DNA of 64,000 nt from Cyanidioschyzon merolae (taxonomy: Eukaryota), in the NCBI GenBank assembly GCA_000091205.1, contig AP006484.2; one strand, given 5' to 3'. Shown here piece by piece: positions 4 to 63,100 of this stretch (its first letter is position 1; each line of letters starts with the position of its first letter). Below the pieces are notes generated by a model that had not been told where the DNA came from, searched no databases, and saw only the letters and a list, made by a program, of their open reading frames with translations. The translations under genes were made by a program, and so were the position numbers.

Positions 4-552
4 TTGCACTTTATGGTTAAGATGAGAAGTCCTTCGTGTGCGTACCTGGCACTGCCTGCTCCTAACAGCACCCTGCGACATGGGAGCAGGCGGTGCCGCC
101 ACGCTCTCCAGTGTGCACGCCCGCGTCCTGAACGAGCAGCCGTGCTAGGGACTGCGTCAGCGACGCGCTACCGCAGGGAGCATGCGCGTTTCCTTGTCGC
201 TTGTGGGGCGCGCGCTCTAGATACCCCCGATCCTGAGGACGACCTCGGGGGCTTCTCACGGAGCGGAAGCGCTTCCCCAGCCACGGACGCCCATTGCAAG
301 GCAACAGAGCCGGTCAGCGACTCGAAGATCGCTGGTGAGGCTCAGCCTGCACCTGCGGACGCACGCGACACCGCTGAGGTATCAGAGCTGACTGGTGCGA
401 CCGACGCATCCAAGACATCCGAGTGGTCTATTCGTACCCCGAATACAAGAAGAGGGACGAATATCACGAATGCGATGCCCGTTGAGGAGCCGATCAATCT
501 TTCATTCGGTTCATCCGTCATGATACCAGAGCATCAGCATACGAACGGAGAG

Positions 553-584
<32 letters not shown>

Positions 585-2247
585 TGGTGCTGGTGCCAAC
601 GAAACACGCCCTCGGAGCCCAGATCCGTACGAGTGGCCTATCGCGAACTTTCAAGCCTCGAATTTGAGTTGGATTTCAGCGGCAGAAATGACACAATGGA
701 CGCAACAAGAAATGGCTTCCAAGCTCGGGATATCGAATGCGTCCGAGACGCGACCAACAGCAGTCCCGCCTTTACCAAATAGTTGCGATGCGTTTGTTGC
801 CTTTCTCCGGAACTGTTCACCCTACATCTATGCCCATCGAAACAAGACGTTTGTGATTCATATTCCAGGGCAAATGCTCCTCGATCGGGCCCTTTTTGAA
901 TCATTTATGCAGGATGTGGCGCTCATCAAAAGCCTTGGCGTCCGAGTGATCCTCGTAGGCGGCTGTCGTCCGCAGGTAGATCGCGCGCTTGAACGTTACG
1001 GCATTCAGCAGCGCTTCGTTCGCGGTACCCGCATCAGCTCGCCGGAAGTGATGCAGGCTGTTCTCGAAGCGAGCGGGTATGTGCGCTTCTCCATCGAGAG
1101 TGCACTGCAGAGGCGACCCAGCAACAGTGTCTCGCTCCGCACGCCGAACGTGGTATCGGGAAACTTCTTCACTGCTCAACCCGTTGGCGTTGTTGAAGGC
1201 GTCGATTTCGGGTACACCGGAAAAGTCCGGAAAATCGATGTGCAGAAGATCATGAAGCGCCTCGATGAGGATGAGATCGTGATTCTCAGCAACGTTGGAT
1301 TCGCTCCGAGTGGTGCGCTTTTTAATTGTCAGAGCGAGGAAGTGGCTAGCTCGTGTGCATCTCAGCTGCAAGCCGACAAGCTCATCTTTATGACGGACGG
1401 TGAGATGCTCGCTGATTTGCGAACGCGAACGATTATGCACAATGTGCCGCTTCGGGCTGCCATGGAGTTTTTGCAGCTGAATGGGCAAGCGAGTCCGTAC
1501 GACGCGAATGCAAGTGCGACGACGTCAACGTCAACGTCAACGATGACACCAGCAAAGAGCATGACGCAGCAAGTGGATGAACCCCGAGCTTCGCGTCCGA
1601 TGCCAGAGCGCTTTCACGTGTGCCTGCAGGAGAGCGTTCGCGCGCTCCGCGGTGGTGTCACCCGAGCGCACCTGATCAACATGTTCGTAGACGGAGCGAT
1701 CCTTATTGAACTGTACACGAGAGATGGCGTTGGTCTCATGATCAGTCGCGATATCTACGAGGGTATACGAAGCGCGAAAATCTCCGATATTCCCGGTATC
1801 ATGGAACTGATCCGGCCACTACAGGAGGAAGGCATTCTGGTACCGCGCTCACGCGAAGCGCTCGAGGCTGAAATCCATCGCTTTCTCGTTGTGGTTCGTG
1901 ACGGTATGGTGACTGCTTGTGCGGCGCTGGTACCGTACGGCTCTGGTGAGGCAGCAGAGATTGCGTGTTTCGTGGTGAGTCCTCAGTACCGGGGTCGTGG
2001 CAAGGGCGACGCGTTGCTGGGCTTTCTGGAACGCCGAGCACTCTCCCAGGGTATTCGACGAGTTTTTATTCTGAGTGTGCGCGCTTTTCACTGGTTCCTA
2101 GAGCGCGGTTTCCGGGAAGGAACCATTGATGACTTGCCGCCGGAAAAACGCAAAACATATAACTTTCATCGGAGATCCAAGATCTACATCAAAGACCTGA
2201 TCTCACAGCGAGAGGTTGACGAAGAAGAGCTGCTGCGTGGTTTGTAG
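4..2247 (+). CDS. Bifunctional N-acetylglutamate synthase (amino-acid kinase domain + GNAT acetyltransferase domain), ArgA-type. N-terminal ~250 aa is low-complexity (poly-Ala encoded by (CAG)n at 556-590) and may be a targeting or disordered region. The ORF is open to the window start, so the true start may lie upstream.
   Basis: AAK-fold motifs: FVIHIPGQMLLD...LGVRVILVGGCRPQVD...VSGNFFTAQPVGVVEGVDFGYTGKV...VILSNVGFAPSGALFN. C-terminal GNAT: VSPQYRGRGKGDALLGFLE. The order and spacing match plant/bacterial NAGS. Confidence 0.8.
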
Positions 2248-15905: not shown

Positions 15906-15998
15906 CTATGAGTGCCACAAGGTTTGAATCCCGAAACGCTGGCGGGCATCCGTGAACCACTGATGTGTCCCAAAGTAGGGGTCCCAGTCGTCGTCCTC

Positions 15999-16030
<32 letters not shown>

Positions 16031-19000
16031 CGACGTCGTCGTCATCGTCGTTAGGGTCTGCGTCATCATTGTCTCCGGTGCCCGCTGAAGTCGTGGGAGC
16101 GGTCGTAGCGGCTTCGACGCACCCAGGGGCCCCATTGACAGCATCTACAACCGCCTGCCCGGTCTGTGCCTGCATCGTCGAGAATCCGTTATGCGGAGCA
16201 GTGGACAATCCAGACGCCTGGTTCGGGGAAAGCGCTGCTACCTGCATTGACCGCTGCCCAGCGCTCGTGTCTGCGCCGTGCCCTACCCAATGACCTTCGG
16301 GCAGTGGAAGCAGGGCCAGCGTCCGTTCGCTGCCTCTGCTTCCATGAGACGACAGTACACGAGCCGGAGAGCGACCCATTTCAGCTCTCAAAAGCGGCAT
16401 TTCAAGCGCATCCGATGTCGAGCACGCTGCAGGGTGTATTGTAAAAGCGACGGAGATGAGGTACGGGAACGCATGCAGCACGAGCCGGGTGTAGCGGTGC
16501 AGATCTGCAACCACATGCTTGCGATCCTCAAAGTGCTCCAGCTGGGACTCTATGTGCCCACTGGCTTCTGCTGCGGCAATGGACGACTCGAAGAGGGCCA
16601 GTTCGGCACGCTCGCGAGGTAGGAGGGTCCTGCGCTGACGGCGCGCAAACGCTAGTCTCATAGCAATATGCGCTCGCATACCGCGTACCGTCTCACGACG
16701 AATCGGCACATAGACAAAGCATTGGACGCGTAAGACGGACCTTGCTTCCACAATGACTCGCTCAAACTCATTCAAGTAGCCAAGTTCCAGCAGCAAATGG
16801 CCGAGTCGTGCCACCAGTTCAGGATCACGTTCCAGCTCTGCAGCGTGCTCGGTCTCGGCGAGGTGCAGTTCAATCTCCGCACGGCGTCTGTAGCGAACAA
16901 GTTCGGCAGCGTAACTGATAGGCCCTGCCTGGATAGTCCATAAACACGACTGCAGACGGCACGGACAAGGTTCGTTGAGCGCTTCAGCAGCAGCCCGAAA
17001 CACGGCTTCGATCGCCTCGTACTCCCTGGCGTTGAGCGTGAGACGCCCTGAACCGCCGAGTAGCACTTTTTGCATATGTGTATCAACAGTGATCCGCTGA
17101 GATGTATCCGGATGAAGCAGGTTATCGAGAAAAGCGGTGACTTTGCTCCCACTGGGGACCCCCAGACAACCCGCCAAATAGTTCAGCAATGAATTCATGG
17201 GATAAGAGCCGAAGCGCGGTCGCCTCACCTGCGAAATCGCCCGATAATTGAGCAGTGCGTTGATCGTATTTGCCGCAATCGATGAATTCGGTGAACACGT
17301 TGCAAGGAGCGAAAGGAAAAGATGCATTTCGAGAGCGTTTCCGTATGTCGCGCCCTGAACTACATCGTGGAGGTCCTGGTACCACGTGTACATGGCTGGA
17401 TGCGTTGCGCGGATGCGCTTCAAGTGGTCGCCCAGTGTCTCCAGGGTCGGTGGAGGCCTCTCGAAACGGTGTTCCCCGAGAACCTCGATACAGGTGCGTA
17501 ATGCAGCTTCAAAAGGCAACGGCTTGCTGGACGCTGCAGTAGGTGGTGCAGGTTTCACCAGCGTCTGTGAGTCGAGTCGTTGGCGTCGAGCCCATTCTCT
17601 GCGCGCTTGCATCCCATTAGCGACTGGATTGAACCGCACCAGCTCCTCCAGAGCATGCCGGACTGCCCGCAGCTTCCGCGATGATGCCCACTCGTCCGGT
17701 ACACTGAAGACCCGCGGATGTGTTTCGTAGATGCACTCTCGAAGAGCGTGCTGAACGTGCGCCTCGGCAGAGAGGCGGGGTGTAGTGTCCGCAACCGTCC
17801 CGCGTTCCCGCAGGATGCGTCGTTCGTACGCATGTTGGACGCGTACGTAGAGCAGCACGTGCTCCTGTCTGCGCAGCTCGTTGGTGATCGCTGCGAGGCT
17901 CTTTTGTGTGGCTCCGAGGAGTTGCTCCAGGCGGTCGCGACCTTCCTGGACGAGAGCATCGATTTCCTGACGATGTTTTTGACGGAGTCGTTCACCTTCT
18001 TCACCGGCAGGGTACGCATTAGAGCGAAGATATTTCGTAGGGTTTGGCGCAATCGCAAGTGAGCCAAAAGTCTTCGGACTGCCTCCAGAGGTGTCGCTTG
18101 TGGTGTGCATGAGTAGCTGCTCCTGGCGATGGCCGACGCGTTCCAGCCACTGCTCCCGTATGCTCATGAGCCATTGTTGATATAGGGCAACATTCTGCAG
18201 CGGCCAGAGAGCACGACATGTGTCATCTGTTGTTGCGACGTGATCAGGAGCTGTGCTCTTGATCCCGCCCTCAGTGGTCTGCGTGTGTGCCGCTGCCTCC
18301 GCTGCTGCTTCACGGACAACCGATTCGGCTGCCGTCTGTATCTTTGCGTCTTGTTCGGAGTCCTCAGTGCCGCTTGATCGGATGCGCTGCTGATCCTGAA
18401 TCCAAAGCAGGGCACGGGACCAAGCGTCTTCCATGCTCGCGTCAGTTACAAGCGAAGCGACGGTAGCATCGGCGTCGACCCTGTGCGTTTGAGGATCCTC
18501 GATGCCGCTGATGCCCCCGTTCGATGCACTGCTCGCTGCTGGTATATTTTCGATTATAGACGGCCGCCACGGGGTGAAAGCGTGTTCCTCTAATCTCGCG
18601 TTCTGCAGCTTTGCTGACGACGGAAGGGCATCACATGTTGAAATAGCACTGCAATCGTTCCGCAAGCCCGCGGAAGCCTGCTTCATTGGTGACTGGAGCA
18701 CTTTGGGCGGTCTCCAGGGCGGTGCTTCGCGTTCACGAGCTCTCGACAAGCACAGCCTAGGACGCCGCGGCCCAAGCTGGTCACGTTCAGGTCTGGTTGA
18801 AGACTTTTGGCCGCTGGCAGCAACGGTAACGGCTTCCTTATTGCCAGGGCTACAAGCGTCCTGGCCGTTTCCCGGCACAAGGGAGCTGCGCTTCTTCGGG
18901 GACCAAAATGTCTCACAAGCATACGATTTGGCTTGCACGCTGTTTTTTTGTACGTCAACCATATTGCTTACTTCTGACGAACGCGAACTGCTGCCGCAGC

Positions 19001-19262
19001 GCACCGGTGTAGCAGCGGGCACAGTCTCGAGGCCCAGCGCTTTAGCGGCCTTCAGAAACGGATTTTCGCACGCGTTAGGTGCGAGCACCCTATCCAGTAA
19101 TGGTGTCGCCACTCTGCCTGAGTCGGTTTGCGGGGAACTAGTCGGCGGCACGAACGCTGGACCTGGTGGAGCTGATGCCTCTTCCTCTGACGTCTGCATC
19201 GCGGGGAAAAGCACAACAGCTGGACCCTTATTTTCCCCAAATTCTCCGCTTACAGCAGCCAC
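15906..19262 (-). CDS. Large orphan protein (1118 aa) with a ~60-aa poly-Asp/Glu tail encoded by a (GAT/GAC)n microsatellite at ~15987-16052; no recognisable domain.
   Basis: Long uninterrupted ORF with the GC-rich codon bias typical of neighbouring genes. No motif recognised by eye. Confidence 0.4.
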
Positions 19263-21230: not shown

Positions 21231-21303
21231 TGTTATCCCCTCATCCTACGCTACTTCGTGCTTCTGGAACGAGAGCTCGAACGCAAGGCGGAGATGAAGC
21301 TGA

Positions 21304-22634
<1,331 letters not shown>

Positions 22635-22707
22635 GGCGCGTTCGCCGCCACTACTCTACTCGGTCGGCGTCCTTCGCCTTTAGGACGGAGTTCGTTGGTG
22701 CTCGTTG

Positions 22708-33509: not shown

Positions 33510-34289
33510 ATGCTACCAGTTCAAAGCTTGCCAATTCAACGCTTGGGATTCGTGCTGCCGTCACCCTGTCAGTTGCAGTCGCGTGGAGTTTCGCACTTGC
33601 CTCGCCGCCAAGCTGGTGCAGCGGGGTCTCGGAGCGCTCGCACAGCGCGTAGGTGCGTACCTCCAGCCAAGTTACGAATGAGCACAGCGGAGCGCGACAA
33701 CCCTGGATGGACCGGGCAAGACGCACTGGATCCCGACACAGCGCTGGCTGCTGAGATATTGCGGCAACTCGTGGAGCGTTCAGCGGGAACGGAAGAACGC
33801 AATCAGAACGAGGCGCTGCCGCGGGAGACACTGCGGGAACTCGGAAGCCGCGGAGCGCAGTCGCTCGGTCGTATTTGGCAACAAACCGATGCAGACGCTA
33901 ACCTATCCGAGTTCACGCTGGCCCAACAGCTGACAGAGAACACCAGGGCGGCGCTGAGGGAACTCATCGAACGTCGAAGCGCTGCGGCTACGAGTGCGTG
34001 GCTAAGGATGGAGCGCGAGCTCAGCCGCTTCGAGACCGAGAAAGAGCACGTTCGTGCGCTCATCCAGGAGCAGAATCATCCCCTTGCACTGTTACGAGCA
34101 GTTCCGCGTTTCATCCTGAACTCTGCACACCTAAGAAATCTCTGTCTCGCAACAGCTTTCACTGCGATAGCCTTGGTTTACGTCACCCTGGGAACCATTC
34201 AAGGTGCACCATACCAGAACGCAACAATTGTTTGCACAGTGGTAGCCGCTGGCAGCATGCTCTATGCGAGCCAACGACGAGAATATTGA
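33510..34289 (+). CDS. Hypothetical protein with a C-terminal hydrophobic segment (possible tail-anchored membrane protein); likely true start is the ATG at ~33678.
   Basis: ORF with helical, charged body (...RELIERRSAAATSAWLRMERELSRFETEKEHVRALIQEQ) and a C-terminal TM-like LCLATAFTAIALVYVTLGTI. No family recognised. Confidence 0.3.
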   Translation: MLPVQSLPIQRLGFVLPSPCQLQSRGVSHLPRRQAGAAGSRSARTARRCVPPAKLRMSTAERDNPGWTGQDALDPDTALAAEILRQLVERSAGTEERNQNEALPRETLRELGSRGAQSLGRIWQQTDADANLSEFTLAQQLTENTRAALRELIERRSAAATSAWLRMERELSRFETEKEHVRALIQEQNHPLALLRAVPRFILNSAHLRNLCLATAFTAIALVYVTLGTIQGAPYQNATIVCTVVAAGSMLYASQRREY

Positions 34290-47456: not shown

Positions 47457-47490
<34 letters not shown>

Positions 47491-47932: not shown

Positions 47933-47966
<34 letters not shown>

Positions 47967-50382
47967 GATGCTGGATTCTACCCGCCGTACGGATGAAACT
48001 GGTGATACCACGGCTACGGCGGACGCTGCAGGCCATGACGCTACAAGCTGGCAGCAAGTCACGGACCCGAGTCTGCATACACAACTGGACCTTGGCCTCG
48101 ATGGCATGGTGACCTCGCCCAGTGATCGTCTGCTGGTCGTGGAACGAGCACTGCGTCATGCGGTCGCCTCACTGGGCCTCGACCTGAACCTCTTGTTGCG
48201 CTATCGTCATCTGCAACCTCTGATGGCGTTTGCGCCCGGCCTTGGGGTTCGCAAAGCATCCCTTTTCATCCAGACGCTGCGAAACCAGTTTTCCAGGGGC
48301 GCCACACGACCCCCAAGCGTCCCGTCACGTCAGGCAGTATTGCGCAGCAAGGCAGCGACTCGGCGGGTGCTCGACTCGCTCATAGCGTATCTGAGGGTTT
48401 CGAGCGGGATCCACGGGACGACTAGCGGCGGTCCAGGCGCCACAGGCGAAGCGTCGACGACACTTCAGGGTGCTTCGGCGGCAGCGTATGCACGTGAACG
48501 ACTTGCCCAGTGGAGACGACGTGCTTCCAGCGTCGATGTGTCGACCTGGCGACCACTAGACGAGACCCGCATCCACCCGGTAGACGAACCGCTGGCGATG
48601 AAGATCGTTGTGGAGTCGTTGCGGGAGCACGATCCACGGTACTGGAATGCAGAGCGTTTAGCGTCGACGCCTGCAGCGGTGTTGGTGTTGCATTTGTTGG
48701 AGCATCCCGAAGCGATCGAGGAGCTCGACTTGCCCGGCTACGCAGCGCACCTGGAACAGGCTGGACACGGTCGTAAGCGGCACATTCTATTCCTGATTGC
48801 GAATGAGTTTTACCGACCATTTGCGGATTGGCGTCGGACGCGCTCCTCGTTACAAGGCAAAGCGCTCTTCTATGCCTGCACCGACCTGGATGAGTGCCTG
48901 TTTGGCTATGGAACGCGGGTGCACGCCTTTGACGGACGTCCTGTAGAGCGCGGTAGCGCTTGGCGTTGTCGTGTGGTTCCCGCAACCGCCTCGGTTGCCA
49001 GCGACTGGCTTCCTGGTCGTCTGGAGGCAGCACAAGTGCCGGCAGTCTGGCGACAAGTCCGCCAGGCAGCGACATGGGGCAGCATGTGGCCTGCTTCTGT
49101 GCATGCACGGGCGGAGGAGCGCTACTTCGGAACGCCCTCGGTTGCTGCCCTGGGGCAAGTGCCGCTCTTACCGCTTCGCGTTAAGGCTGTGGACGGAGAG
49201 GCGCTCCAGGTGCAGCTCATGGCGCTGGAGCCGTTACCAGCCGAGCTTGCGTGGTTGGCGGAGCGAATGGCGCACCTGCCGGGTCGAGTGCCGCTGGAGT
49301 CGGTGTCGCGAAGCGCGCCTCCTGGTACCACCGCAGGCACTGCAGGTGTTGACGCTTTTAACACATCGAGTGCTGCTGCTGCTGCTGCTGCTGCTACGAA
49401 TCATTTGTCCTCTTCGACGCTGCTATCCCAAAGAGCATCACGTGTGCTTCCCACGGGCCTGTTGCGCCATCCTGCGTACCGTGCGCTTAGTGGGCGTCAG
49501 GTGGTGCAGGAGCTTGCCCAAGCGCCGCCTGGCACCGTCTATTATCGTCCCTGTTCCCGCGATGCCCAAGCGGTATGTGCTTCGTTCAAAATCCACGACG
49601 AGGCGCCCATTGTGCACTTGGACTTGTTGGTGGTGGAGTCTGTGGGGTCCGGTTCCGGTGCGGTTGCCGGAAACGCCACTGGTGCTAGTGCTGGTGCTGC
49701 TCCTGCTGCTGCTGGTAGTGGCGAGCACGTCACACAGCAGTGGCAGCTGCGTCTGGATGCGGAGCTCTTCGACGACTTGGACGAGGTTTTTGCACGCTAT
49801 ATTGAACCGATTGTTCAGCTCGCCTGGAGAGCGACGCAGCATCCCAAGTTTATGCTTGTTGGTGAACACGACAACGCTGCGGCGGCTACCACGGCACTGG
49901 AAGCCTTACTACGGCAAGAGAAGGCCAAAGCTCCCAGCACCATCCCCTATCGACTCGCGTTTTGTCGACATCGTCCAGCGCATTTGGTGTTTGCGTATCT
50001 ACCGGGTCGAGCGACTGTGCTGTACGAGCCCATTACCCTCACCCCAACAGGTTACCGACTTCGTGATCAGGTGTTCTCGTCAGTTGATGACTTGGTCAGC
50101 TGGTTCAAACGCAACTGGCAGCGTTTGTTGCGTTCGCAAACCGGACCACCGCGACAACAAGCGACAGAGGCTGATTCAGATGCGGTGCTGGCGTCACTGG
50201 GAGCAGGAGCAGTTGCCGTGGGTGCATCGGCTGGAAACCGTTACCAGAGCGAGGCCTCTGCTGCGTACGGGGCGCAAGTTGGTGTCGACCAACGGGTACC
50301 TGTTGTGGGTTCTTTGGTGCAACTCGCGCAGCGAGCCCTTGAGCGTTCCGGAGCGGGCACTGGTCGGCATGCACCGCGTTAA
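44041..50382 (+). CDS. SPT6: Transcription elongation factor SPT6 (2113 aa; unusually long owing to homopolymer Ala/Gln and other low-complexity insertions).
   Basis: Acidic N-terminus (EEEEIGSDDDEDDLADFIDYGDG). HhH-like PLMAFAPGLGVRKASLFIQTLRNQFSR. C-terminal tandem SH2-like LLRHPAYRALSGRQVVQELAQAPPGTVYYRPCSRDAQAVCASFKI...IVHLDLLVVE resembling the Spt6 SH2 region. (GCT)n at ~47455-47490 and (CAA)n at ~47929-47967 encode poly-Ala and poly-Gln. Confidence 0.7.
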
Positions 50383-52620: not shown

Positions 52621-54573
52621 TTAGCGATGACTACGCGTACCAAGGCTCATCTTGCCCGCAAAGAGGTGATGCGGTTTGCGCGTACCGATGAAACGATCAG
52701 ACTCGCCTTGGCGGTGCTCTCGTCCGCTAAACGCGCGACGCAGCGTCCGCTGAACGAGTTTCTGGGCGTGGCGAGCCTGCACAACATCACGCAGACCAGC
52801 AGGAACCAGGGACTGATCGCTTACAGCTCGAGTTCGATAGACAACTGGTGCAGAGTGAGCTGCTTTTCTGGTCTGCTGCTTGGTGGTGCTTGGGTCGACA
52901 GCGCGCCCCCATGGTCGCTTTGCAACCGCCTGCGACGTCTTGCGTACCTTGAGAAGCGCTTTGCGCGATAGCTTAGGTCGTTGGGTGCGGTCTCGGGCAG
53001 CTTGCTGCTGACGAAGCCGTCGCTGGTTGCGAGCTTTCTCCCGAATCAGCGCGACATCGGTGTCTGACGGTTGATCAACCGGGACGTCTGCACGCGGCTC
53101 GTCACCGACGGCGTCTGAAAGCATACTCTGACGCATCGTTTCCTCTTGCTCAAGGGCAAGCAGCCTCTGATGAATCTCCGGATCAACATAGTCCGCTATG
53201 TTCTTGCCGTCTACGATCTCCGGAATGTAGTCATAGCGCCATGCTGGGTCTGTTAGGTCGTAGTGCTTGCGCCAGTCCATGCTGTAGACGCCTGCACCTC
53301 CGTGGTCGCGTTCCAGTTCACGCTCCGTCTTCCGGCCTGCTCGGCTTGTCGACAAGGTGCAGGCCAGTTCAGGTGCGGTGTTTTGGTTAAGTGCATCGTC
53401 CGCATCGCGCAGAGCCTGGCGGCGTTCGAGGACTGAAGCGGGAATCTGCGGTGTGCGAACGAGCTTCGGCTCCGCGACGTGCAGCCGGTTCAGTACAGAG
53501 TCCGTTTGTCTGCCGCTAACTTTGAGAGAGACACGCAGCGCTAAAAGTCGTTCACAAGCGCGATTACGAACCGCGAACACCGATGCATATCCGTCGTCGC
53601 CCATCGTGGATGCCGTCATCAGCTCTGCGCCCACTTGTTCGGCGGTTTCCCGTATCGCCGTCCACGTTGCCGGATCGAGTTGCTGTTCCCAGCCAAGATC
53701 CGTCTTATTGCATACCACGAAAAGAGGCTTGTCAGCGAACAGCGGTTGAAGGGAACGAAGCAAGGCCAGTTGCTGGGCTATGGCGTAGCCACAGGTCTCT
53801 GACGGGTCCACGAAGAACAGAATCGCCGCCTGGAGATGTGCCAGCGCTGTAATCGACTGCATCTCGATGGTGTTGCGCTCATCGAGGGCGTGATCCAAAA
53901 GACCAGGTGTGTCGATGACCTGCCAACGCAGGTACTGGTAATCCATATGACCGACAAACAGGGACTTTGTGGTGAACGCATACGGTTGGACGTCGACTTT
54001 GGCGTTGGTGACGCAGTTCAAGAACGATGACTTGCCAACGTTCGGATAGCCCGCAATCAGCAGCGTTCGCGTCATAGGGTCGATACTAGGTAAGCGCGCC
54101 ATATGTTGGCGCACTTGCTCCAGATACGCTAACGCTGGGCGAAGGTGTTTCACCGTTGTGCACATTCGACCCAGAGCGGCTCGTTTGAGGCACTTGGCAC
54201 GGTAGAGAGAGTCTGCGTATTTGAGTTGGCGCACGTAGTCGCGTGCAAAGCTGTCCACAAGGCTGCGTATCCGACTTACTTGACCAAGGGCCAGTTTGTA
54301 GTGATCTCGGTCATACAGCACATTCAAAATATCCGCATAAAAGGGATGTAGTTCCTCTAAAATCGGAAAGTCGCTGAGGATCTTTGTCAGGCGCTCATGA
54401 AAACATGACTGAGCATAGCGCACCTTGCGTATGTAGAACGTCCGAATCCGAGTGATCGCATACCCTGGGTGCACAACGGTGGGGGTTTTGCGCTGTGTCT
54501 GAGAGAGTACGATATCGATGAGGTCCAGTGCCTCCGGTACCACCTGGATGTGCTTTAGACCCCCTACAGTCAT
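52621..54573 (-). CDS. NOG1: Nucleolar GTP-binding protein 1 (NOG1/GTPBP4). Probable start is the Met at 54573; the ORF track extends to 54732.
   Basis: MTVGGLKHIQVVPEALDLIDIVLSQTQRKTPTVVHPGYAITRIRTFYIRKV...HPFYADILNVLYDRDHYKLALGQV matches the human NOG1 N-terminus almost residue-for-residue. G1 GYPNVGKSS, G3 DTPGLLD, G4 CNKTD. Confidence 0.85.
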   Translation of the reverse strand: MTVGGLKHIQVVPEALDLIDIVLSQTQRKTPTVVHPGYAITRIRTFYIRKVRYAQSCFHERLTKILSDFPILEELHPFYADILNVLYDRDHYKLALGQVSRIRSLVDSFARDYVRQLKYADSLYRAKCLKRAALGRMCTTVKHLRPALAYLEQVRQHMARLPSIDPMTRTLLIAGYPNVGKSSFLNCVTNAKVDVQPYAFTTKSLFVGHMDYQYLRWQVIDTPGLLDHALDERNTIEMQSITALAHLQAAILFFVDPSETCGYAIAQQLALLRSLQPLFADKPLFVVCNKTDLGWEQQLDPATWTAIRETAEQVGAELMTASTMGDDGYASVFAVRNRACERLLALRVSLKVSGRQTDSVLNRLHVAEPKLVRTPQIPASVLERRQALRDADDALNQNTAPELACTLSTSRAGRKTERELERDHGGAGVYSMDWRKHYDLTDPAWRYDYIPEIVDGKNIADYVDPEIHQRLLALEQEETMRQSMLSDAVGDEPRADVPVDQPSDTDVALIREKARNQRRLRQQQAARDRTQRPKLSRKALLKVRKTSQAVAKRPWGRAVDPSTTKQQTRKAAHSAPVVYRTRAVSDQSLVPAGLRDVVQARHAQKLVQRTLRRAFSGREHRQGESDRFIGTRKPHHLFAGKMSLGTRSHR

Positions 54574-54959
54574 GGTGTCGTCGTAAGCAAATACCAATTG
54601 GAAGCGAGCTCTTCGTGTGAAGTGAGGGCAATGGTACCCAGGGAGTACTGGCTGCTCTCGAACGCCGCGTAGTGTAGGTACGCTGTGAACGGGTACGATA
54701 GACGTGTCCCCTGGAGCCGCCTCGTTGTGCACTCACGAGGAAACAGGTGACCCGATCGCTTCGCTCGATATCGGTATTTGTATGCAGTGGAGGTCCCTTG
54801 TTCAAAAAATTCGACACCACACCGTCCCTGGTGCACTGCTTTTGTCAGGTACGTTTCCTGAACTCGGCCGGCGACATCGGTATATCCGCAGCCGACGGAG
54901 AGTGCGCTGCGGACGGCGGCGGCTGCTGCTGCTGCGGGCGGCGCGCCCCAGACGCGAAA

Positions 54960-56615
54960 GCGGGGCAGGTGCCTGGAGGCACTGATCCTCGACACGGGAA
55001 CTCGAAGCGAAGCACGGGGGAACTGTTTTCCGTATTGTGGAAAGATCACCTTGTAGGCAGGTGCCTGGAGGCACTGATCCTCGACACGGGAACTCGAAGC
55101 GAAGCACGGGGAAACTGTTTTCCGTATTGTGGAAAGATCACCTTATAGGCAGGTGCCTGGAGGCACTGATCCTCGACACGGGAACTCGAAGCGAAGCACG
55201 GGGGACCTATTTTCCGTATTGTGGAAAGATCACCTTGTAGGCAGGTGCCTGGAGGCACTGATCCACTACAGGGGAACTCGAAGCGAAGCACGGGGAAACT
55301 GTTTTCCGTATTGTGGAAAGATCACCTTGTAGGCAGGTGCCTGGAGGCACTGATCCTCGACACGGGAACTCGAAGCGAAGCACGGGGAAACTGTTTTCCG
55401 TATTGTGGAAAGATCACCTTGTAGGCAGACTGGAGGCAATGATCCTCGACACGGGAACTCGAAGCGAAGCACGGGGAAACTGTTTTCCGTATTGTGGAAA
55501 GATCACCTTATAGGCAGGTGCCTGGAGGCACTGATCCTCGACACGGGAACTCGAAGCGAAGCACGGGGAAACTGTTTTCCGTATTGTGGAAAGATCACCT
55601 TGTAGGCAGGTGCCTGGAGGCACTGATCCTCGACACGGGAACTCGAAGCGAAGCACGGGGGAACTGTTTTCCGTATTGTGGAAAGATCACCTTGTAGGCA
55701 GGTGCCTGGAGGCACTGATCCTCGACACGGGAACTCGAAGCGAAGCACGGGGAAACTGTTTTCCGTATTGTGGAAAGATCACCTTATAGGCAGGTGCCTG
55801 GAGGCACTGATCCTCGACACGGGAACTCGAAGCGAAGCACGGGGGACCTATTTTCCGTATTGTGGAAAGATCACCTTGTAGGCAGGTGCCTGGAGGCACT
55901 GATCCACTACAGGGGAACTCGAAGCGAAGCACGGGGAAACTGTTTTCCGTATTGTGGAAAGATCACCTTGTAGGCAGGTGCCTGGAGGCACTGATCCTCG
56001 ACACGGGAACTCGAAGCGAAGCACGGGGGAACTGTTTTCCGTATTGTGGAAAGATCACCTTGTAGGCAGGTGCCTGGAGGCACTGATCCTCGACACGGGA
56101 ACTCGAAGCGAAGCACGGGGAAACTGTTTTCCGTATTGTGGAAAGATCACCTTGTAGGCAGGTGCCTGGAGGCACTGATCCTCGACACGGGAACTCGAAG
56201 CGAAGCACGGGGAAACTGTTTTCCGTATTGTGGAAAGATCACCTTATAGGCAGGTGCCTGGAGGCACTGATCCTCGACAGGGGAACTCGAAGCGAAGCAC
56301 GGGGGAACTGTTTTCCGTATTGTGGAAAGATCACCTTATAGGCAGGTGCCTGGAGGCACTGATCCTCGACACGGGAACTCGAAGCGAAGCACGAACGTGC
56401 AACAAGGTCGTTCTATCCTTATGGTAAGCGTTGCACGGGGGAACTGTTTTCCGTATTGTGGAAAGATCACCTTGTAGGCAGACTGGAGGCAATGATCCTC
56501 GACACGGGAACTCGAAGCGAGGCACGAACTTACAACAATTTTGTTTCCATCCTTATGGTAAGCGAAGCACAGGGAACTATTTTCCGTATTGTGGAAAGAT
56601 CACCTGGTAGGCAGA
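54960..56615. repeat. Tandem satellite, 92-bp monomer x ~18, organised as a 7-monomer (~641 bp) higher-order repeat; sits 0.2-0.4 kb upstream of the NOG1 start.
   Basis: Monomer: gtaggcaggtgcctggaggcactgatcctcgacacgggaactcgaagcgaagcacgggg(g)aactgttttccgtattgtggaaagatcacctt. Predicted mini-ORFs recur every 92 nt (55037, 55129, 55221...). Variant monomers (GKLF..ARGTYF, GDLF..IHYRG, PLQGN) recur exactly 641 bp later at 55678, 55770 and 55862. Degenerate copies run to ~56615. Confidence 0.9.
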
Positions 56616-59600
56616 AGGTTTCGTGAGCTAGACGAGTCTGCTAGGCTGGTGCTTCACTCTCTAGACAGTGGCAGGTGCTGTGGCGAGCTCTGAGCAGCTC
56701 GTCTGCAACGCAATTCATTCTGGGACTAGGTGCAGTTAGGCTGAGTCTGGGCTTCGCACTGGTCGTGGTTGACTCCTAGCTTATCGATTCGTGCTGTCGC
56801 AGGCAGTCGGTCTGCCTGTACACTTTACATGCTCCCAGAATAGCTATGTACTCCGACTCCTTGTCGAATGGAGCAGGCATCGAGCCGAAACCCCGCCCCC
56901 CCACCAGTGGTGTGGCAAAGCCGTTCTGGCCCCGTGCTACGTACGCACTACCAGCACAGGCGCTACTGCGGGTGCTCATGGCAAGTACTCGGCGCACGAT
57001 AGACCGTACGAAACAACCAGTATATTCGAGAGGAACTAGGGGTCATGGAACCTGGAGGCCGGATGCTGCATGACGAACTTTTTTTCGAATGCTAATATCC
57101 ATCCCACAGCCTAGGAACCATGGCCAATGTAAATGCTTTTTTCAGAGAGAAACACGCGCCCAATGGAGCGATCATTACGTTTCAAAATAGAAAACAATTC
57201 TTTCATGGGATTCAACCACGGAGCGCACGGAGGAATAAAAAGCAGCTCTGCCCTTGATAGATTCGGCAAAAGCTCGAACGCGAGTCGAATGGTGAAATAC
57301 CACGTTGTCCTATAGAGGGATGTCGCCAGACGCCAGCGGAAAAGTCTTCAATGATTCGGCAAAGTCGTTGGTGCCATCGTATGAATCCTCTGTACCAGCG
57401 AAACCGCGGCCGGCAAATGAATCCACTACCGCTAGGACAGATGATGTCGTCAGAGTTCTCTTCGAGATCCATCGCGCACACAACGGGCTTCCTGCTCTGC
57501 GAGTAGTCACATGCGCTCCAAAGGTTTCACTTAACGGAGTTCTCATCGACTGAAAAAACCACCCCAAGTCCCAGTGCTTCATACCGATCGCTGAGTTCCA
57601 GGAATTCTGTTGTTGCGATTTCAGTGGAAGATGACTGTGCATAAACTAGGACTTGTTTCTGCGACTTTATGCCAGTGTTTCAGGATCACACGAATAAGAC
57701 GTTGAGAAGTATAGACGCACATGACGAATGATATCTTTGCTTTTGCTTTCCGTTAAGTGATCAAAGATTCGCCTTTGACGATGGACCGCAAGCACGCCTT
57801 GAGACGATCGGGTTTTCGCGCGGGGCATATAGTCGTGTTTCTTTCAGGGTTCCGCAGCCATCAGAGTATTGTGTTATGACTGACCTGATTCAGAAATGCA
57901 GTCCTTGTTGCGCTCTTCAGTAAAGCATATATCCTGCAGGCAATTCGACTACGATCTGTCCGGCACGTTGCATCGTGCTTTCGATCAGCTGCTATACCCC
58001 GCAGCGGAGGTTGCACCAACATTGAGTTGAGAGCCCATAAGCGAGCGCTGCGATACCTGGTGATTCATTGATGTGCGTCGGTGTAATTTTTTATCAAAAA
58101 GTGTGTGCCATAAAACCAGGTCATCTATGGGTGTGCGGGCATAGCTTCTGGCCTATCGCAACGCGCCGCTAGTCTTGGTGATGCACTGTTATGTGTTGCG
58201 ATGTCCTTTCATTAGTCAGCATGCTTCGTGGAAACCAGGATGGCTGTGAAGAACTTCACCGTGTGCACGCCCTGATGTCTGGTATGTAGTGTAGCGGGTC
58301 GTTTGGCGCAGCCACGTATGCACACGGAAACATCAGAACGCAGCTCCATACGATTACAGCTCCCGCTTTTTAGAATCAGCGTCGTGTCTGGCGATGCTGC
58401 ACAGCGCTATGTGCACAAGGCGGGGCAGTCGCACAGTAACATCGAAAGGTTTGCCTTGTGCCTTGAAGGACTCCGCACGTTGTGTTGCGCTGTTGTAATG
58501 CGCGAGACTGGGGTCCGCGTGCGTCTGTTCTCGACGGATTCAAGGCAGCGCGCAAGCATGAGCGCAAGGCGTCTTCCGCGTCTTCCGCGTGCTTCTGGGA
58601 GACTGCGCGCGCTAGCCTGTTCGTATGGACGAGGCGGATCGTAGACCAAGCCGAACAGCAATGGCAGGTTTTTTCAGAGCTCTCCCGTACTCGGAATCGT
58701 GCGCCCTTCGCGTCTCAGAGGCGTATCTGGTCGATACGCAGCGCCTGCTAAACGGTATAAAACTCGGGTTCGAATCCGTCCATGATTATCGGATGCAGCG
58801 CACGCTGCACATCAGTGGCGTTTCGCGGAGCCCCAGAAGAGCGCCTAGCTGCGTTGCGCCGGGCGAACGATGCTAGATGTTTGCCGCCCAGCGCGTTATT
58901 GCCTAATCTGGGCATCGTTGACCGCAAAAGGGTCATTCACCGGGGATACTTGCTACCTCGTGATATCTGTGATGACTTTTAGCAGATGCCCAGCGGAGCC
59001 AACATCTCGATATAGCGATCTGGGCATTACAAATCACAAAAGCCTAAAGTTCGACATGCAGCAGACAACCCCCCGGGTCGATTAAGATAGCGAGCTCTCA
59101 TACGAACGGGTTGTACGGCTGGATCAACTCGGGTTTCTCCAGATGAGCAAAACAGACTAGAGCGAAATGGCATGGGATCTGAGAGACATCCACTTGCATT
59201 CAAAGAGGGCACTTGTCTCGCATGATGGGCCGAGCCCTCGAATCATGCTTCCAAACCAAAAACGATATCTACTGAACGGCATCCAAATTTCGCAAGAGAG
59301 CTCGTTTCGCTACGAAAAGTAGAGCAAAACACCTCTGTGGTCGGTGAAAAACGCCACCAGCTCGATATGGCTGTAAACTGATGCAATCCATGGCCTGCTG
59401 GAGAGACACCGCCCCGCTTCAATTCATCTGCCCGATACTGACTCGGAACGAGTGTTACGGAAGAAAATTCGATTGAGCCGAAGAAGCAACACCTCAAACA
59501 ATCGCCAAAGAAGCTCCAGTGCGATCATTGGCGATGGAACAATGAAGATAAGAACATGACTGAGGCTCGCTAGTATCCTGTACCAACTTACACCACTTTT

Positions 59601-59911
59601 CTGGTGCAAAGAGATCGATGCATCATGCTTGAGACGCAGCTACTGCTACCTACCATAGCTGCTGCCGCAGCGAGCACTGCACCCTCTTATGGGACCGCAC
59701 CTAGTTCGACTCGAGCGCGATTCACTGAGCTACAGTGCCACTCGCATAGAGTCACCCACAGGTATTATCAAGTCTCTGCGCGTTCCGTTGATTAACTCGA
59801 AAACAACGCCACCTCAGCGGTCCCATTCACCAGGCTCCACTCGCAGCGGTTTATCCGAGTGTCGGCGCCAGCTCGCTGTACGCTGAAAGATCCTCGACGC
59901 GCACATACCGC

Positions 59912-60166
59912 CTACGACCGTTGCTGTCGCTCTATCATAGCCTTGCTAACAACTCCCATGGACTCAATGTACCTATCGACACACTTGGCTAAACAGGTCT
60001 GCTCCCCGGAGGTCAGCGTAGCGCTTGGTTTGGTCACGCACTTCTCAAAGCACTTTTCCGTCACTCGTTGTACGAGATCCTGAAACGCCTGCCGCAGCAT
60101 CTCATTTCGAACACGATCTTCAAGCTCCGCCCGCTGTGATGGCGTCAGTTGATCTATTTTATCCAT
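59912..60166 (-). CDS. TIM9: Mitochondrial import inner-membrane translocase subunit Tim9 (small Tim, twin Cx3C).
   Basis: MDKIDQLTPSQRAELE...VTEKCFEKCVTKPSATLTSGEQTCLAKCVDRYIES. CX3C...CX3C with the Tim9-diagnostic LTSxEQTC. Confidence 0.8.
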   Translation of the reverse strand: MDKIDQLTPSQRAELEDRVRNEMLRQAFQDLVQRVTEKCFEKCVTKPSATLTSGEQTCLAKCVDRYIESMGVVSKAMIERQQRS

Positions 60167-63100
60167 AGGTAACGGTGGTAAACGTCCAGTGAAGCCGGAA
60201 TGCGGCGGTTACCTCGTTGTGTGCAACTGCAGGCACCCAAGGCGACGTAAAGCTATTGAAGTGCATCGGCGGCGCCTGTGGTGCCGGCGCCCGGTGCGAC
60301 GGCACCATGGATGCGCTGTCGGAGGTTTGTATGCTCGGGGTCACGGGGGATGCCCTGCTCTTTTCTCCAAAAGTATTGTGGATCGAGTAAAATGCCGGTG
60401 ACTGGCCCGCAGCACGTATGCAGCGCTTATACGGCTGCCAGGATAGAACTGCAACGAGTTCACTGACTCAACGAGGGCGAACACGCGCAAGTTTGCGTTA
60501 TTTCATATCGTCAACTGCACCAGAACTTGGGGGTTGGTTTTTCGGTCTCCTGTGTCGCGTCTCCAACTTTAAATACGCTGGTCTCTCGTTTCGCTCCGAT
60601 TTCGTGAGCATCAGTCAGAGGATCGTGATAACAGGGCCAAATTCTCGTTCATAGGATTTCCGGTTGGCATAGACACGTGATAGGCGCAGGCGAAAGTTTC
60701 GATCGAATCTTCATTGGCCATGCTCACCTATTTGTTTGCGGCATCGGCGTACGCTTTGCAGCGATCACACCCGACTATGGTCAGATGCTGCCTTGTCTCC
60801 AGCGTGCTTCCTCGTACGAGTACTGCCCTCCGGCGCTTGAACTGTTGCTGCATCGCTCTGTACACGCACTAGACGAGTACAGAAGACTCCCCGTCGATGC
60901 CCTCGACCGTTTTCGCGTCTGGTGCCGTACCCGAAGATCACGAGCTTCGTCAGTGGCGATGCCCCCGACGAGTACTCTGTATGCGTCATATGCGAGTGCG
61001 CACTGTTCCATGCCATTGAAGATTTGTGGATTGCGGTGTTCGCCATGGTGGTAGGGATTTGGAAGGAAAATGCAGGTTGGAGAACTTGCCGAGAACTATC
61101 GATCCGGTGGCGTTCTCTTCATGGAAACCTGTGAAGCTTTCCCCATTGGAAGCCGTCTCCGCTATGTGTAGAGTACGAATCCATGAACACTTTTCATGCA
61201 AACAGAAGACAGGGTAGCCTCTCTGGGAGCATATCCCCTGAATTGTATCGTGCTGCGGTTGAATCCGCCGATTCATCGACGGGCACACAGAGAGAAGCAC
61301 CTGTCTTTCGACCCGCGTCGAGTATTTGACATGCGCTTGGGAAGAAGTCGTCAAGGAAGGTCGTCGAGATTCTCTCCTCATCGAAGCAGGGACGCGCATA
61401 GCTGTGCTCCTCGGTTACCTTGAAACAGAAAGATCGAGTTCTAGGAAACTGTATGAATTGAGCACGCGATATTTACGGAACGGAGAAGAGTCAAGGCTTG
61501 TTGTTCTGCATTGCGTTAAAATATCGGTTATTATAAGAGCCCTTGTACGAATCTGTCGCATGTCACTGTGATGATGGTGAGGTGACGAATTCTACTGGGA
61601 CTTTGTCGAAGGGGCCGTCCCGGAGAAAACAACCGCCGAGAATCGTAAACCAAGGTATGCATCCAAGAACGCCAATTCCCGCACTTCGAAATTAGAGGCG
61701 CAATATCAACACAAGTTCGCAGAGAAAATCGACAGATAGAAACAGAACGAGCAGTTCAGTTCGCGATGGTAGTTCGACACCATTGTGGAGCGCAGCAGCG
61801 TATCGCGCTCGTTCGACTGTACCTGGACGAGTTCGGATAATGTGCAGTCGGGCACACGAACCAGCCCGGGCAGAACTTGGTCCAGGCTCACCTGGGATGC
61901 TGGAGTGTCCTGAGGCGCAACTGGGTATGCCCGTTTGCCGAAACGATTCATTGTCGTTCGTTGGCACTCGTTTAGAGAGACACCCAGCTGCTAGACATGT
62001 GTGCACCATGCGTCCTTGGTGCGTGCGAGCGACGAATATCCCAATGTCGTCGGATCCCGTGGATGACAACCACGCAGCATCGACTCGTTACTCGTTCGAC
62101 GCACTAGTTGATGCCGCGGGCGTGCCGCCATCGCGTGCTATAGCGCGTCCTGCGCCAAAGGCGAATACCGCACCACGTGACTTGTCGGTCATGTTCTTTG
62201 CCACTTCATTGATGAAGCCCGCAAATCTATGCATCTTGCCTCCATGCAACCGATACCGTTGGCGGCCCCAGCGAGGTCTCTCGGAACGCTGTCGAAAATC
62301 GTTCGCACGAGCCATGTGGACGCTTCTGCTCTGTCCAGTGCTGGGCGCTACGGAATCGATGTTGGCACTGTCACGCCATTTGTTGGTATATACGCTGGCG
62401 TCCATAATGCTCGACTACCCATAAACGCGAACAATGGAGAAATCAAGCCATATTACATATTCTGTCTGAGCATCAATTACCCTGTCATATGAAGGTTCTA
62501 TCGAAAATTTCGAGAGGCATCTGCTCAGCTGGTAGCCCTGCGTCCGGATCGGCTACAGCAAGTCGTTTGACGAGGTGCATCGGGGCGAGAGCGGTGCCTC
62601 GCGAGACTTTGTCGCGTAAGGAGCTATGCGATATCTGTTGGCGTCCTGAATCTATCGATTAGCCGGAGACGAACTTGTTGGCTAGTGATCTATGCGCGTA
62701 AAAACCGCGTTTGCCGATAGTGACAATGCCGTACACTGGATAGAAGCTGGGAGCATGGGCTGGTACGAAGACCAGGTCCAGCCAAATTCCAGCTGTATGC
62801 TCCCTGTTTCTTGTTCAGTCATGGAACGCGACATTGCTAACGAGCAGGACAGACGAATTTGGTAAGGAGGAGCTTGGCAGAGAGACTCGATGAACGACGC
62901 GTCGTCGAGCAATCCTAACCGTTCGGCGATTTGGGGCCGGCCTCACGCTTGACTCCCCGCTGGGCCTGAAGCCGTTGTCGCACGTGCTTGACTCCTCTTT
63001 ACGGCCGGAGGTCTGCCCCTACTTCATCAACGATGCACAGACCTGCCAGTCTTCCCGAATCAAGACTCATCGAATGAGACGAACACCATCCAAACCTGTA

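What the first reader, a model, noticed from the sequence alone, without database searches (positions are those of the whole stretch)
54960..56615. 92-bp satellite with a 7-monomer higher-order repeat abutting the NOG1 promoter; each monomer carries two short dyads
Seen in sequence: ~18 tandem 92-bp monomers. Monomer variants recur with a 641-bp period (e.g. variants starting 55037/55129/55221 reappear at 55678/55770/55862), i.e. a 7-monomer higher-order repeat of about 2.5 copies.

Each monomer contains the dyad GTGCCtggaGGCAC (overlapping an E-box-like CAGGTG) and a second dyad TTTCCgtattgtGGAAA.

The array begins ~230-390 bp upstream of the NOG1 (nucleolar GTPase) start codon on the same side as its promoter. 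It is preceded by a GC-rich (GCGGCGGCGGCTGCTGCTGCTGCGGGCGGCGCGCC) tract.

Higher-order repeat organisation is typical of centromeric or otherwise homogenised satellites and is unusual immediately upstream of a housekeeping gene. All ORFs predicted inside it are periodic artefacts.
Basis: seen in the sequence. Interest (0 to 1): 0.5.

Follow-up and report, generated by a model that had tools for sequence, protein, structure and literature searches.

The report
Variable intergenic minisatellite upstream of NOG1
This is a real but ordinary single-locus 92-bp tandem repeat in a non-coding spacer of red-alga (Cyanidioschyzon merolae) chromosome 2; it varies between strains, lies far from the centromere, and its "higher-order repeat" is one recent internal duplication.

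Summary
The repeat is real: 17 head-to-tail monomers (14 of 92 bp, one of 89, then 136 and 133 bp) at window 54964-56609. The window is Cyanidioschyzon merolae 10D chromosome 2, 352,001-416,000, so the array lies at chr2:406,964-408,615. It starts 391 bp upstream of the NOG1 (CMB146C) start codon, in a 5.3-kb unannotated spacer before Tim13 (CMB148C).

The 7-monomer higher-order repeat is only partly supported. One exact 424-bp duplication (monomers 1-4 = 8-11, offset 641 bp) produces the whole lag-7 signal; there are no 2.5 repeating units.

The published chromosome 2 centromere (212.6-213.5 kb) is about 194 kb away, and C. merolae centromeres are reported to be short, low-GC and repeat-free. 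A metagenome scan with a 22-nt invariant core found five contigs, all from this same locus. They carry 3, 5, 6 or more monomers with different variant orders.

The nearest sister lineage keeps the gene order but has a 1.7-kb spacer with no trace of the monomer. There is no RNA-family match, no fold beyond shuffled controls, no coding capacity and no transposon domain.

Best reading: a young, copy-number-variable minisatellite made by slippage or unequal exchange, probably near-neutral. A regulatory role is not excluded but has little support.

The parts
54964..56340 (.). Fifteen short monomers: 14 of 92 bp and one of 89 bp (monomer 6, at 55424-55512). The 89-bp monomer has a 3-bp deletion that destroys the first palindrome.
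   Evidence: Mean pairwise identity of the 92-mers is 97.4%, with 6 distinct sequences.
56341..56609 (.). Two long terminal monomers of 136 and 133 bp. Each is a 92-type unit plus a roughly 44-bp segment bracketed by the 11-bp direct repeat AAGCGAAGCAC / AAGCG(TT/AA)GCAC. The array ends in a partial unit, GGCAGAAGG..., that runs into unique sequence.
   Evidence: Long units sit at the right end of the array in every strain.
54964..55387 (.). First copy of the exact 424-bp intra-array duplication (monomers 1-4 plus 56 bp of monomer 5).
   Evidence: the longest exact run at offset 641 bp.
55605..56028 (.). Second copy of the exact 424-bp duplication (monomers 8-11 plus 56 bp of monomer 12). This is the only source of the '7-monomer' periodicity.
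54908..54948 (.). GC-rich triplet tract (GGC/TGC runs) immediately left of the array. One metagenome contig (L002) ends inside it.
52621..54573 (-). NOG1 nucleolar GTPase gene, CMB146C (chr2 404621..406573). Its 5' end faces the array, with 390 bp lying between the ATG and the array.
56616..59911 (.). Unannotated non-coding spacer between the array and Tim13. It includes a low-GC patch (48-49.5%) at about 57.0-58.5 kb. It diverges between strains about 3-4 times faster than the NOG1 coding sequence.
59912..60166 (-). Tim13 (small Tim, zf-Tim10_DDP) gene, CMB148C. It is the next annotated gene to the right, and its 3' end faces the array.

Best explanation
The array is a young, single-locus, copy-number-variable minisatellite (VNTR). 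It sits in an unusually long non-coding spacer upstream of NOG1 (CMB146C) on C. merolae chromosome 2.

Inferred history: a unit of about 133-136 bp was duplicated. A deletion between 11-bp direct repeats (AAGCGAAGCAC) produced the 92-bp form. The 92-bp form then expanded by replication slippage and unequal sister-chromatid exchange. One very recent out-of-register exchange, 7 monomers out of step, duplicated 424 bp in the 10D lineage and mimics a higher-order repeat.

The array needs no function to exist. NOG1's working promoter most likely lies in the 390 bp between the ATG and the array.

Shown: the array's anatomy, its chromosomal position, its restriction to this locus in the data searched, its difference between strains, its absence from the sister lineage, and the lack of RNA, coding or transposon signals.

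Inferred: the mutational mechanism, the direction of the 136-to-92 change, and near-neutrality.
For: Anatomy: 17 monomers with 97.4% mean identity.

Higher-order signal: it reduces to one exact 424-bp duplication.

Position: five gene coordinates in the chromosome 2 GFF match window ORFs at a constant offset of 352,000. Chromosome 2 is 457,013 bp. The centromere is at 212.6-213.5 kb.

Single locus: the 22-mer scan of JGI metagenome contigs returned only 5 contigs. All are this locus, with flanks 98-99.7% identical, and two of them are 65-76 kb long. There are no viral hits.

Variation between strains: arrays spanned by unique flanks on both sides have 3 (136-89-133), 5 (92-92-136-89-133) and 6 (92x4-136-133) monomers, against 17 in the window. 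They carry variants absent from the window, such as GGCAGAATGGAGGCAC and CACCTGGTA.

Lineage restriction: the sister lineage (NOG1 74% identical) keeps the order Tim - NOG1 - Spt6 but has a 1.74-kb spacer with no similarity to the monomer. Cyanidium has only a 380-bp spacer upstream of NOG1.

No sign of constraint or product:
- The spacer diverges by 0.9-1.4% between strains, against 0.26-0.36% for the NOG1 coding sequence.
- Rfam gives nothing.
- RNA fold z-scores run from -0.8 to +0.2.
- ORFs inside the array are 81 aa or shorter.
- There are no Pfam domains in the spacer's ORFs.

Other unrelated 83-97-bp minisatellites sit in neighbouring intergenic regions of this genome and of the relative, so this kind of repeat is common here.

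NOG1 is steadily expressed at about 107-148 TPM (supplement of PMC13353863).
Against: - The monomer has more 5-bp dyads than shuffled controls (6 against 0.97, P = 0.004).
- A 26-nt block, TTTTCCGTATTGTGGAAAGATCACCT, is invariant in all 35 monomers from all strains. This could reflect constraint. However, overall divergence is only about 3%, and the contigs were found using 22 nt of this block.
- Copy numbers in short-read metagenome contigs are lower bounds, because identical monomers can collapse in assembly.
- The full C. merolae genome itself was not searched, only metagenome assemblies of close strains.
- No expression or chromatin data were examined across the array.
Confidence: 0.8

Rival explanations
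1. The array is a multi-copy cis-regulatory module. Each monomer offers palindromic binding sites (GTGCCTggAGGCAC, and GGAAA/TTTCC/GGAAA) for a dimeric transcription factor, and copy number tunes or insulates NOG1 transcription.
For: The array lies on the promoter side, from 391 to about 2040 bp upstream of the ATG. Dyads are enriched over shuffled controls, P = 0.004. A 26-nt block containing the second dyad is invariant in 35 of 35 monomers across strains.
Against: - Copy number ranges from 3 to 17 between very close strains.
- The first palindrome is destroyed in 8 of 35 monomers.
- The array and its motifs are absent upstream of NOG1 in the sister lineage and in Cyanidium, where the whole upstream spacer is 1.7 kb and 0.38 kb respectively.
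- Neither dyad nor either sub-block of the invariant segment recurs anywhere else in the 62 kb outside the array.
- Because all monomers are copies of one sequence, 'each monomer carries it' counts as one observation, not 17.
Confidence: 0.1
2. The array and the surrounding 5.3-kb spacer are the remains of a mobile element or another inserted sequence, and the tandem repeats were internal to it.
For: The spacer is about 3.6 kb longer than in the sister lineage. It is unannotated and has lower GC than its surroundings.
Against: There are no reverse-transcriptase, transposase or other Pfam domains in its ORFs, no second copy in the window, and no hit to the monomer core in viral contigs or at any other metagenome locus. 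No terminal repeats were seen.
Confidence: 0.05
3. The monomers encode a tandemly repeated small RNA (for example a snoRNA cluster serving ribosome biogenesis) or form part of an unannotated non-coding transcript. The gene ID CMB147 is missing between CMB146C and CMB148C.
For: The monomer length of about 92 nt is typical of a snoRNA, and the neighbouring gene is nucleolar. One ID is skipped in the current annotation.
Against: No Rfam family matches at gathering score or at E <= 1 inside the array. Neither strand folds better than shuffled controls in two registers. I saw no C and D box pair on reading the monomer. Copy number is unstable. The meaning of the missing ID could not be established.
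Confidence: 0.04
4. The array is a centromeric or heterochromatic satellite with true higher-order organisation.
For: Monomer identity is significantly higher at lag 7.
Against: - It lies about 194 kb from the CENH3-defined centromere of the same chromosome.
- C. merolae has one CENH3 region per chromosome, low in GC and without repeats.
- The array is 1.65 kb, single-locus and 53.5% GC.
- The lag-7 signal comes from one duplication.
- Its neighbours are not in the H3K27me3 target lists held for PMC5405695 (weak evidence).
Confidence: 0.01

Closest known systems
Minisatellites / VNTR loci (tandem units of tens of bp, single locus, copy number polymorphic through slippage and unequal exchange)
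   Same: Head-to-tail units of 89-136 bp. One locus. Non-coding. Different copy numbers and variant orders in closely related strains. Divergent units at the array edge. Internal block duplication.
   Different: The unit is at the long end of the usual minisatellite range. Polymorphism is inferred from short-read metagenome contigs, not from sized alleles.
Centromeric satellites with higher-order repeats (for example primate alpha satellite)
   Same: Tandem monomers, with one multi-monomer block that recurs exactly.
   Different: Only about 1.6 copies of the would-be unit. 1.65 kb in total. Single locus. About 194 kb from the mapped centromere. C. merolae centromeres are reported to lack repeats.
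Other intergenic minisatellites in Cyanidiophyceae seen here (window 30749-31080, 83 bp x 4; relative L009 9482-9663, 83 bp x 2.2, and 12347-12527, 97 bp x 1.9)
   Same: Similar unit length, an intergenic position within a few hundred bp of a gene end, and high identity between copies.
   Different: Unrelated in sequence and far fewer copies. The NOG1 array is the largest seen in the sequences examined.

Membership tests
Minisatellite / VNTR | Head-to-tail tandem units of about 10-100+ bp | tested here: met
   17 units of 89-136 bp, 96-97% identical.
Minisatellite / VNTR | Confined to one locus rather than dispersed or shared by several chromosomes | tested here: met
   no other copy in the window, and all 5 metagenome contigs with the 22-mer core map to this locus. 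The full 10D genome was not searched directly.
Minisatellite / VNTR | Copy number and internal variant order differ between individuals or strains | tested here: met
   3, 5 and 6 monomers in contigs that span both flanks, against 17 here, with strain-specific variants. Caveat: short-read collapse makes the contig counts lower bounds.
Minisatellite / VNTR | Non-coding | tested here: met
   ORFs of 81 aa or less, periodic; 92 is not a multiple of 3; nothing annotated there.
Centromeric higher-order-repeat satellite | Located at the CENH3-binding region | tested here: not met
   the array is at 407-408.6 kb and the chromosome 2 centromere at 212.6-213.5 kb. This rests on a published ChIP-qPCR position and on GFF coordinates.
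Centromeric higher-order-repeat satellite | Several complete multi-monomer units, more alike between units than the monomers are within a unit | tested here: not met
   only monomers 1-4 recur (as 8-11). Pairs 5/12, 6/13, 7/14 and 8/15 differ by 1, 4, 1 and 2 changes. There is no third copy.
Centromeric higher-order-repeat satellite | Long arrays, usually shared among chromosomes | tested here: not met
   1.65 kb, single locus.
Centromeric higher-order-repeat satellite | Occupied by centromeric histone | not testable with these tools
   This needs the CENH3 ChIP-chip or ChIP-seq track over chr2:406,964-408,615.
Tandem small-RNA gene cluster (snoRNA-like) | Match to a known RNA family, or a conserved stable fold | tested here: not met
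   no Rfam match in the array; fold z-scores from -0.8 to +0.2.
Tandem small-RNA gene cluster (snoRNA-like) | A discrete transcript from each unit | not testable with these tools
   No RNA-seq coverage is available here.
Promoter-proximal array of transcription-factor sites | Upstream of a gene, within promoter range | tested here: met
   391 to about 2040 bp upstream of the CMB146C ATG.
Promoter-proximal array of transcription-factor sites | Motif conserved at the orthologous promoter, or recurring at other promoters | tested here: not met
   absent from the sister lineage and from Cyanidium, and no recurrence in the other 62 kb of the window.
Promoter-proximal array of transcription-factor sites | Bound by a factor, and affects transcription | not testable with these tools
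   This needs ChIP or footprinting, and deletion of the array.

The most novel reading that the evidence does not exclude
The array is a strain-variable regulatory or chromatin element. Multiple copies of an invariant 26-nt dyad-bearing block (TTTTCCGTATTGTGGAAAGATCACCT) recruit a dimeric DNA-binding protein upstream of a ribosome-biogenesis gene, so that repeat number tunes or insulates NOG1 expression, or seeds repressive chromatin, in a genome otherwise almost free of repeats.
Probability: 0.07. Interest if true: 0.4.

Novelty: new member of a known kind. Interest (0 to 1): 0.1.

Why it matters
It matters little biologically: the array is an unannotated minisatellite in a finished reference genome.

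Practical value:
- It is a ready-made polymorphic marker for telling Cyanidioschyzon strains or populations apart.
- Anyone cloning the 'NOG1 promoter', or assembling this locus from short reads, should know it is there. Short-read metagenome assemblies may under-represent it or break in or near it.

It also shows that a significant lag-k identity signal in a short array can come from a single block duplication, and should not be read as higher-order satellite organisation.

Tried and rejected
- Trypanosomatid-style polycistronic context: rejected, because genes alternate strands and the NOG1 relatives are red algae.
- Exact-protein lookup for the chromosomal coordinate: failed for the C. merolae proteins. 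The coordinate came instead from a GFF in a paper supplement.
- Kanesaki 2015 (the primary centromere paper) is not held, and the supplement of PMC3744952 is not held. The centromere position therefore comes from the main text of PMC3744952, and the centromere properties are second-hand.
- Subtelomere idea: rejected. There is no AATGGGGGG repeat in the window, genes continue to the window's end, and the array is about 48 kb from the chromosome end.
- The low-GC patches at 19.5-22.5 kb and 57.0-58.5 kb were considered as candidate centromeres. They were dropped once the window was placed at 352-416 kb.
- Metagenome contigs carrying NOG1 (L001-L003) were uninformative about the array. One ends in the GC-rich tract and two end in fold-back chimeras.
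- Relatedness between the 92-mer and the other minisatellites (window 83-mer; relative's 83-mer and 97-mer): none above the shuffled null.
- Recurrent minisatellite upstream of NOG1 across genera: rejected, because Cyanidium has only a (CGC)9 run in a 380-bp spacer.
- The identity of the skipped gene ID CMB147 was not found.
- H3K27me3 target lists held for PMC5405695 do not mention CMB146-149.

Full report
**What is there.** Tandem Repeats Finder reports a 92-bp-period array at 54964-56393 (15.6 copies, 96% matches), followed by a 133-bp-period tail to 56615.

Cutting at the recurring GGCAG gives 17 monomers:
- fourteen of 92 bp;
- one of 89 bp (monomer 6), with a 3-bp deletion;
- two long terminal units of 136 and 133 bp.

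The fourteen 92-mers are 97.4% identical on average and comprise six distinct sequences. The 25-mer TTTTCCGTATTGTGGAAAGATCACC occurs 17 times in the array and nowhere else in the window, with none expected by chance.

The long units equal a 92-type unit plus about 44 bp. That extra segment is bracketed by an 11-bp direct repeat, AAGCGAAGCAC ... AAGCG(TT/AA)GCAC. The 92-bp form is therefore most simply derived from the long form by deletion between those repeats. This direction is my inference.

ORFs inside the array are all 81 aa or shorter, start with GTG and recur every 92 bp.

**The higher-order repeat claim.** I compared all pairs among the first 15 monomers.
- Mean difference is 1.0 at lag 7, against 2.8-3.1 at most other lags (2.25 at lag 11, n = 4); permutation p is about 0.0008.
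- The whole effect comes from monomers 1-4 being identical to monomers 8-11. This is one exact 424-bp duplicate, 54964-55387 = 55605-56028, at an offset of 641 bp.
- Pairs 5/12, 6/13, 7/14 and 8/15 differ by 1, 4, 1 and 2 changes. That is not distinguishable from random monomer pairs.
- The diagnostic 89-bp variant does not recur at position 13, and there is no third copy.

The array therefore holds about 1.6 copies of a would-be unit, not 2.5. The signal is a single recent out-of-register duplication, not an established higher-order repeat.

**The dyads.** GTGCCTggAGGCAC, with the overlapping CAGGTG, is in 15 of 17 monomers. TTTCCgtattgtGGAAA is in all 17.

The consensus monomer has six 5-bp dyads with a spacer of 10 nt or less, against 0.97 in dinucleotide-preserving shuffles (P = 0.004). 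They form two alternating three-arm clusters, AGGCA/TGCCT/AGGCA and GGAAA/TTTCC/GGAAA.

Against reading function into this:
- Neither strand folds better than shuffled controls as RNA, in two registers (z from -0.8 to +0.2).
- Because the monomers are copies of one sequence, the dyads count as one observation, not 17.

**Organism and position.** The minus-strand ORF 52621-54573 is NOG1 (Pfam NOG1_N, NOG1, NOGCT, MMR_HSR1). Its 100%-identity cluster includes XP_005535229.1 / BAM78943.1 of Cyanidioschyzon merolae 10D, on a 457,013-bp record. That is the length of chromosome 2 (Table 1 of PMC1955436).

A GFF in the supplement of PMC13353863 lists genes that match window ORFs at a constant offset of 352,000:

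| Gene | chr2 coordinates | Window coordinates |
|---|---|---|
| CMB140C | 385510..386289 (+) | 33510..34289 |
| CMB146C (Nog1) | 404621..406573 (-) | 52621..54573 |
| CMB148C (Tim13) | 411912..412166 (-) | 59912..60166 |
| CMB149C | 412765..413046 (-) | 60765..61046 |
| CMB151C (APS kinase) | starts 415748 (+) | starts 63748 |

The window is therefore chr2:352,001-416,000, and the array is chr2:406,964-408,615. Nothing is annotated between CMB146C and CMB148C.

The array starts 391 bp upstream of the NOG1 ATG. About 3.3 kb of ORF-free sequence follows it before the 3' end of Tim13.

**Not centromeric, not subtelomeric.** CENH3 ChIP-qPCR defined the chromosome 2 centromere at 212.6-213.5 kb (PMC3744952), about 194 kb from the array. 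C. merolae has one CENH3 region per chromosome, 2-3 kb long, of relatively low GC (48.4% against 55%) and with no other apparent pattern (10.1101/096016 citing Kanesaki 2015 and Maruyama 2008).

The array is 53.5% GC. There is no telomere repeat in the window, and genes continue to its right end.

**Single locus, variable between strains.** A scan of JGI metagenome contigs with the invariant 22-mer TTCCGTATTGTGGAAAGATCAC returned five contigs. All five are this same locus, with flanks 98-99.7% identical to the window. Two come from contigs of 65 and 76 kb, so close relatives of this genome are well assembled in those samples, yet no second locus appeared. A viral-contig scan found nothing.

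Contigs that span both unique flanks carry different arrays:

| Source | Monomers | Order |
|---|---|---|
| L006 | 3 | 136-89-133 |
| L004 | 5 | 92-92-136-89-133 |
| L007 | 6 | 92x4-136-133 |
| Window | 17 | 15 short, then 136-133 |

The contigs also carry variants that are absent from the window, such as GGCAGAATGGAGGCAC and CACCTGGTA. Short-read assembly can collapse identical monomers, so the contig counts are lower bounds. The differing variant content, however, is a real sequence difference.

Across all 35 monomers the first palindrome is destroyed in 8. A 26-nt block, TTTTCCGTATTGTGGAAAGATCACCT, is invariant in all 35. I treat that invariance cautiously, because overall divergence is only about 3% and 22 nt of the block were the search key.

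**Comparison with other lineages.** The nearest other lineage (NOG1 74% identical; not named by the tools) keeps the order Tim - NOG1 - Spt6. Its Tim-to-NOG1 spacer is 1.74 kb, against 5.3 kb here, and shows no similarity to the monomer by blastn or nhmmer. It has its own unrelated 83-bp x 2.2 repeat 340-520 bp upstream of NOG1, and a 97-bp x 1.9 repeat downstream.

In Cyanidium caldarium (NOG1 60% identical) the spacer upstream of NOG1 is only 380 bp and holds just a (CGC)9 run. So the array arose within the Cyanidioschyzon lineage. A NOG1 promoter can also evidently fit in under 400 bp, which is about the distance left between the ATG and the array in C. merolae.

The window itself holds another unrelated minisatellite (83 bp x 4, at 30749-31080), 229 bp upstream of CMB139C. 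Repeats of this type appear to be an ordinary feature of intergenic DNA in these genomes.

**No sign of a product or of constraint.**
- Rfam gives no match at gathering score across the window.
- At E <= 1 there is nothing inside the array. The only hit in the spacer is a 22-bit C/D-box match (family threshold 100) at 59017-59111.
- The spacer's ORFs have no Pfam domains, and the spacer has no second copy in the window.
- Neither dyad nor either sub-block of the invariant segment recurs in the other 62 kb.
- Between strains, the NOG1 coding sequence differs by 0.26-0.36%, the 390 bp between the ATG and the array by 0.5-1.4%, and the right-hand spacer by 0.9-1.4%. That pattern fits weak or no constraint on the spacer.
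- NOG1 is steadily expressed, at about 107-148 TPM, and is not differentially expressed between ploidy stages (supplement of PMC13353863).
- H3K27me3 covers about half of the annotated repetitive elements in C. merolae (PMC5405695), but CMB146-149 do not appear in the supplementary lists held for that paper. This is weak negative evidence only.

**Verdict.** The best explanation (confidence about 0.8) is a young, single-locus, copy-number-variable minisatellite that is probably near-neutral. It was generated by slippage and unequal exchange in an expanded non-coding spacer, and one recent 424-bp internal duplication mimics a higher-order repeat.

A role as an array of transcription-factor sites for NOG1 remains possible (about 0.1), on the strength of its position, the dyad enrichment and the invariant block. 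Against it stand the copy-number instability, the loss of one palindrome in many monomers, and its absence from related lineages.

The remaining rivals are each unlikely: a transposon relic (0.05), a small-RNA cluster (0.04) and a centromeric satellite (0.01).

It is a new, undescribed member of a well-known kind. Interest is low.

Noticed in passing
window 30749-31080: A second minisatellite: 83 bp x 4, 97% identical. It lies 229 bp upstream of the start of CMB139C (S26 signal peptidase, minus strand, 29510-30520). It is unrelated in sequence to the 92-mer.
   Followed up: partly
window 54574-59911 and 60167-63747: Unusually gene-poor stretch for this compact genome. A 5.3-kb unannotated spacer and then a 3.6-kb spacer contain only Tim13 and the doubtful 93-aa CMB149C (no Pfam hit, about 0 TPM in a published table). 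The sister lineage has 1.7 kb and 1.6 kb at the same places. The gene IDs CMB147 and CMB150 are skipped in the current annotation.
   Followed up: partly
window 57000-58500: Low-GC patch (48-49.5%) just right of the array. This is similar to the GC reported for C. merolae centromeres, but it lies about 195 kb from the mapped chromosome 2 centromere. No ORF or domain is present.
   Followed up: partly
window 59017-59111 (-): Weak match to the C/D-box snoRNA family GlsR13 (22 bits against a family threshold of 100; E = 0.24). Probably chance.
   Followed up: no
window 19500-23500: Low-GC (49-51%), strongly purine-skewed stretch with three consecutive plus-strand ORFs (20433-21230, 21585-22634, 22705-23445). 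They give only weak coiled-coil-type Pfam hits. It may be one gene for a low-complexity protein, or a frameshifted one.
   Followed up: partly
L009 9482-9663 and 12347-12527: The sister lineage has its own unrelated tandem repeats flanking NOG1: 83 bp x 2.2 upstream and 97 bp x 1.9 downstream. Cyanidium caldarium (L013) has none, only a (CGC)9 run at 7853-7879.
   Followed up: yes
L001 and L003 (right ends, window ~54790 and ~54853): Two metagenome contigs carrying NOG1 end in joins that jump back into the NOG1 coding region. These look like assembly or template-switch chimeras just short of the array.
   Followed up: no
window 554-584, 15997-16031, 47458-47489, 47926-47966, 49371-49395: Several perfect or near-perfect trinucleotide runs (CAG, TCA, GCT, CAA, TGC; 8-14 copies). 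By position at least four fall within long ORFs: 4..2247, 15906..19262 and the Spt6-like CMB144C.
   Followed up: no
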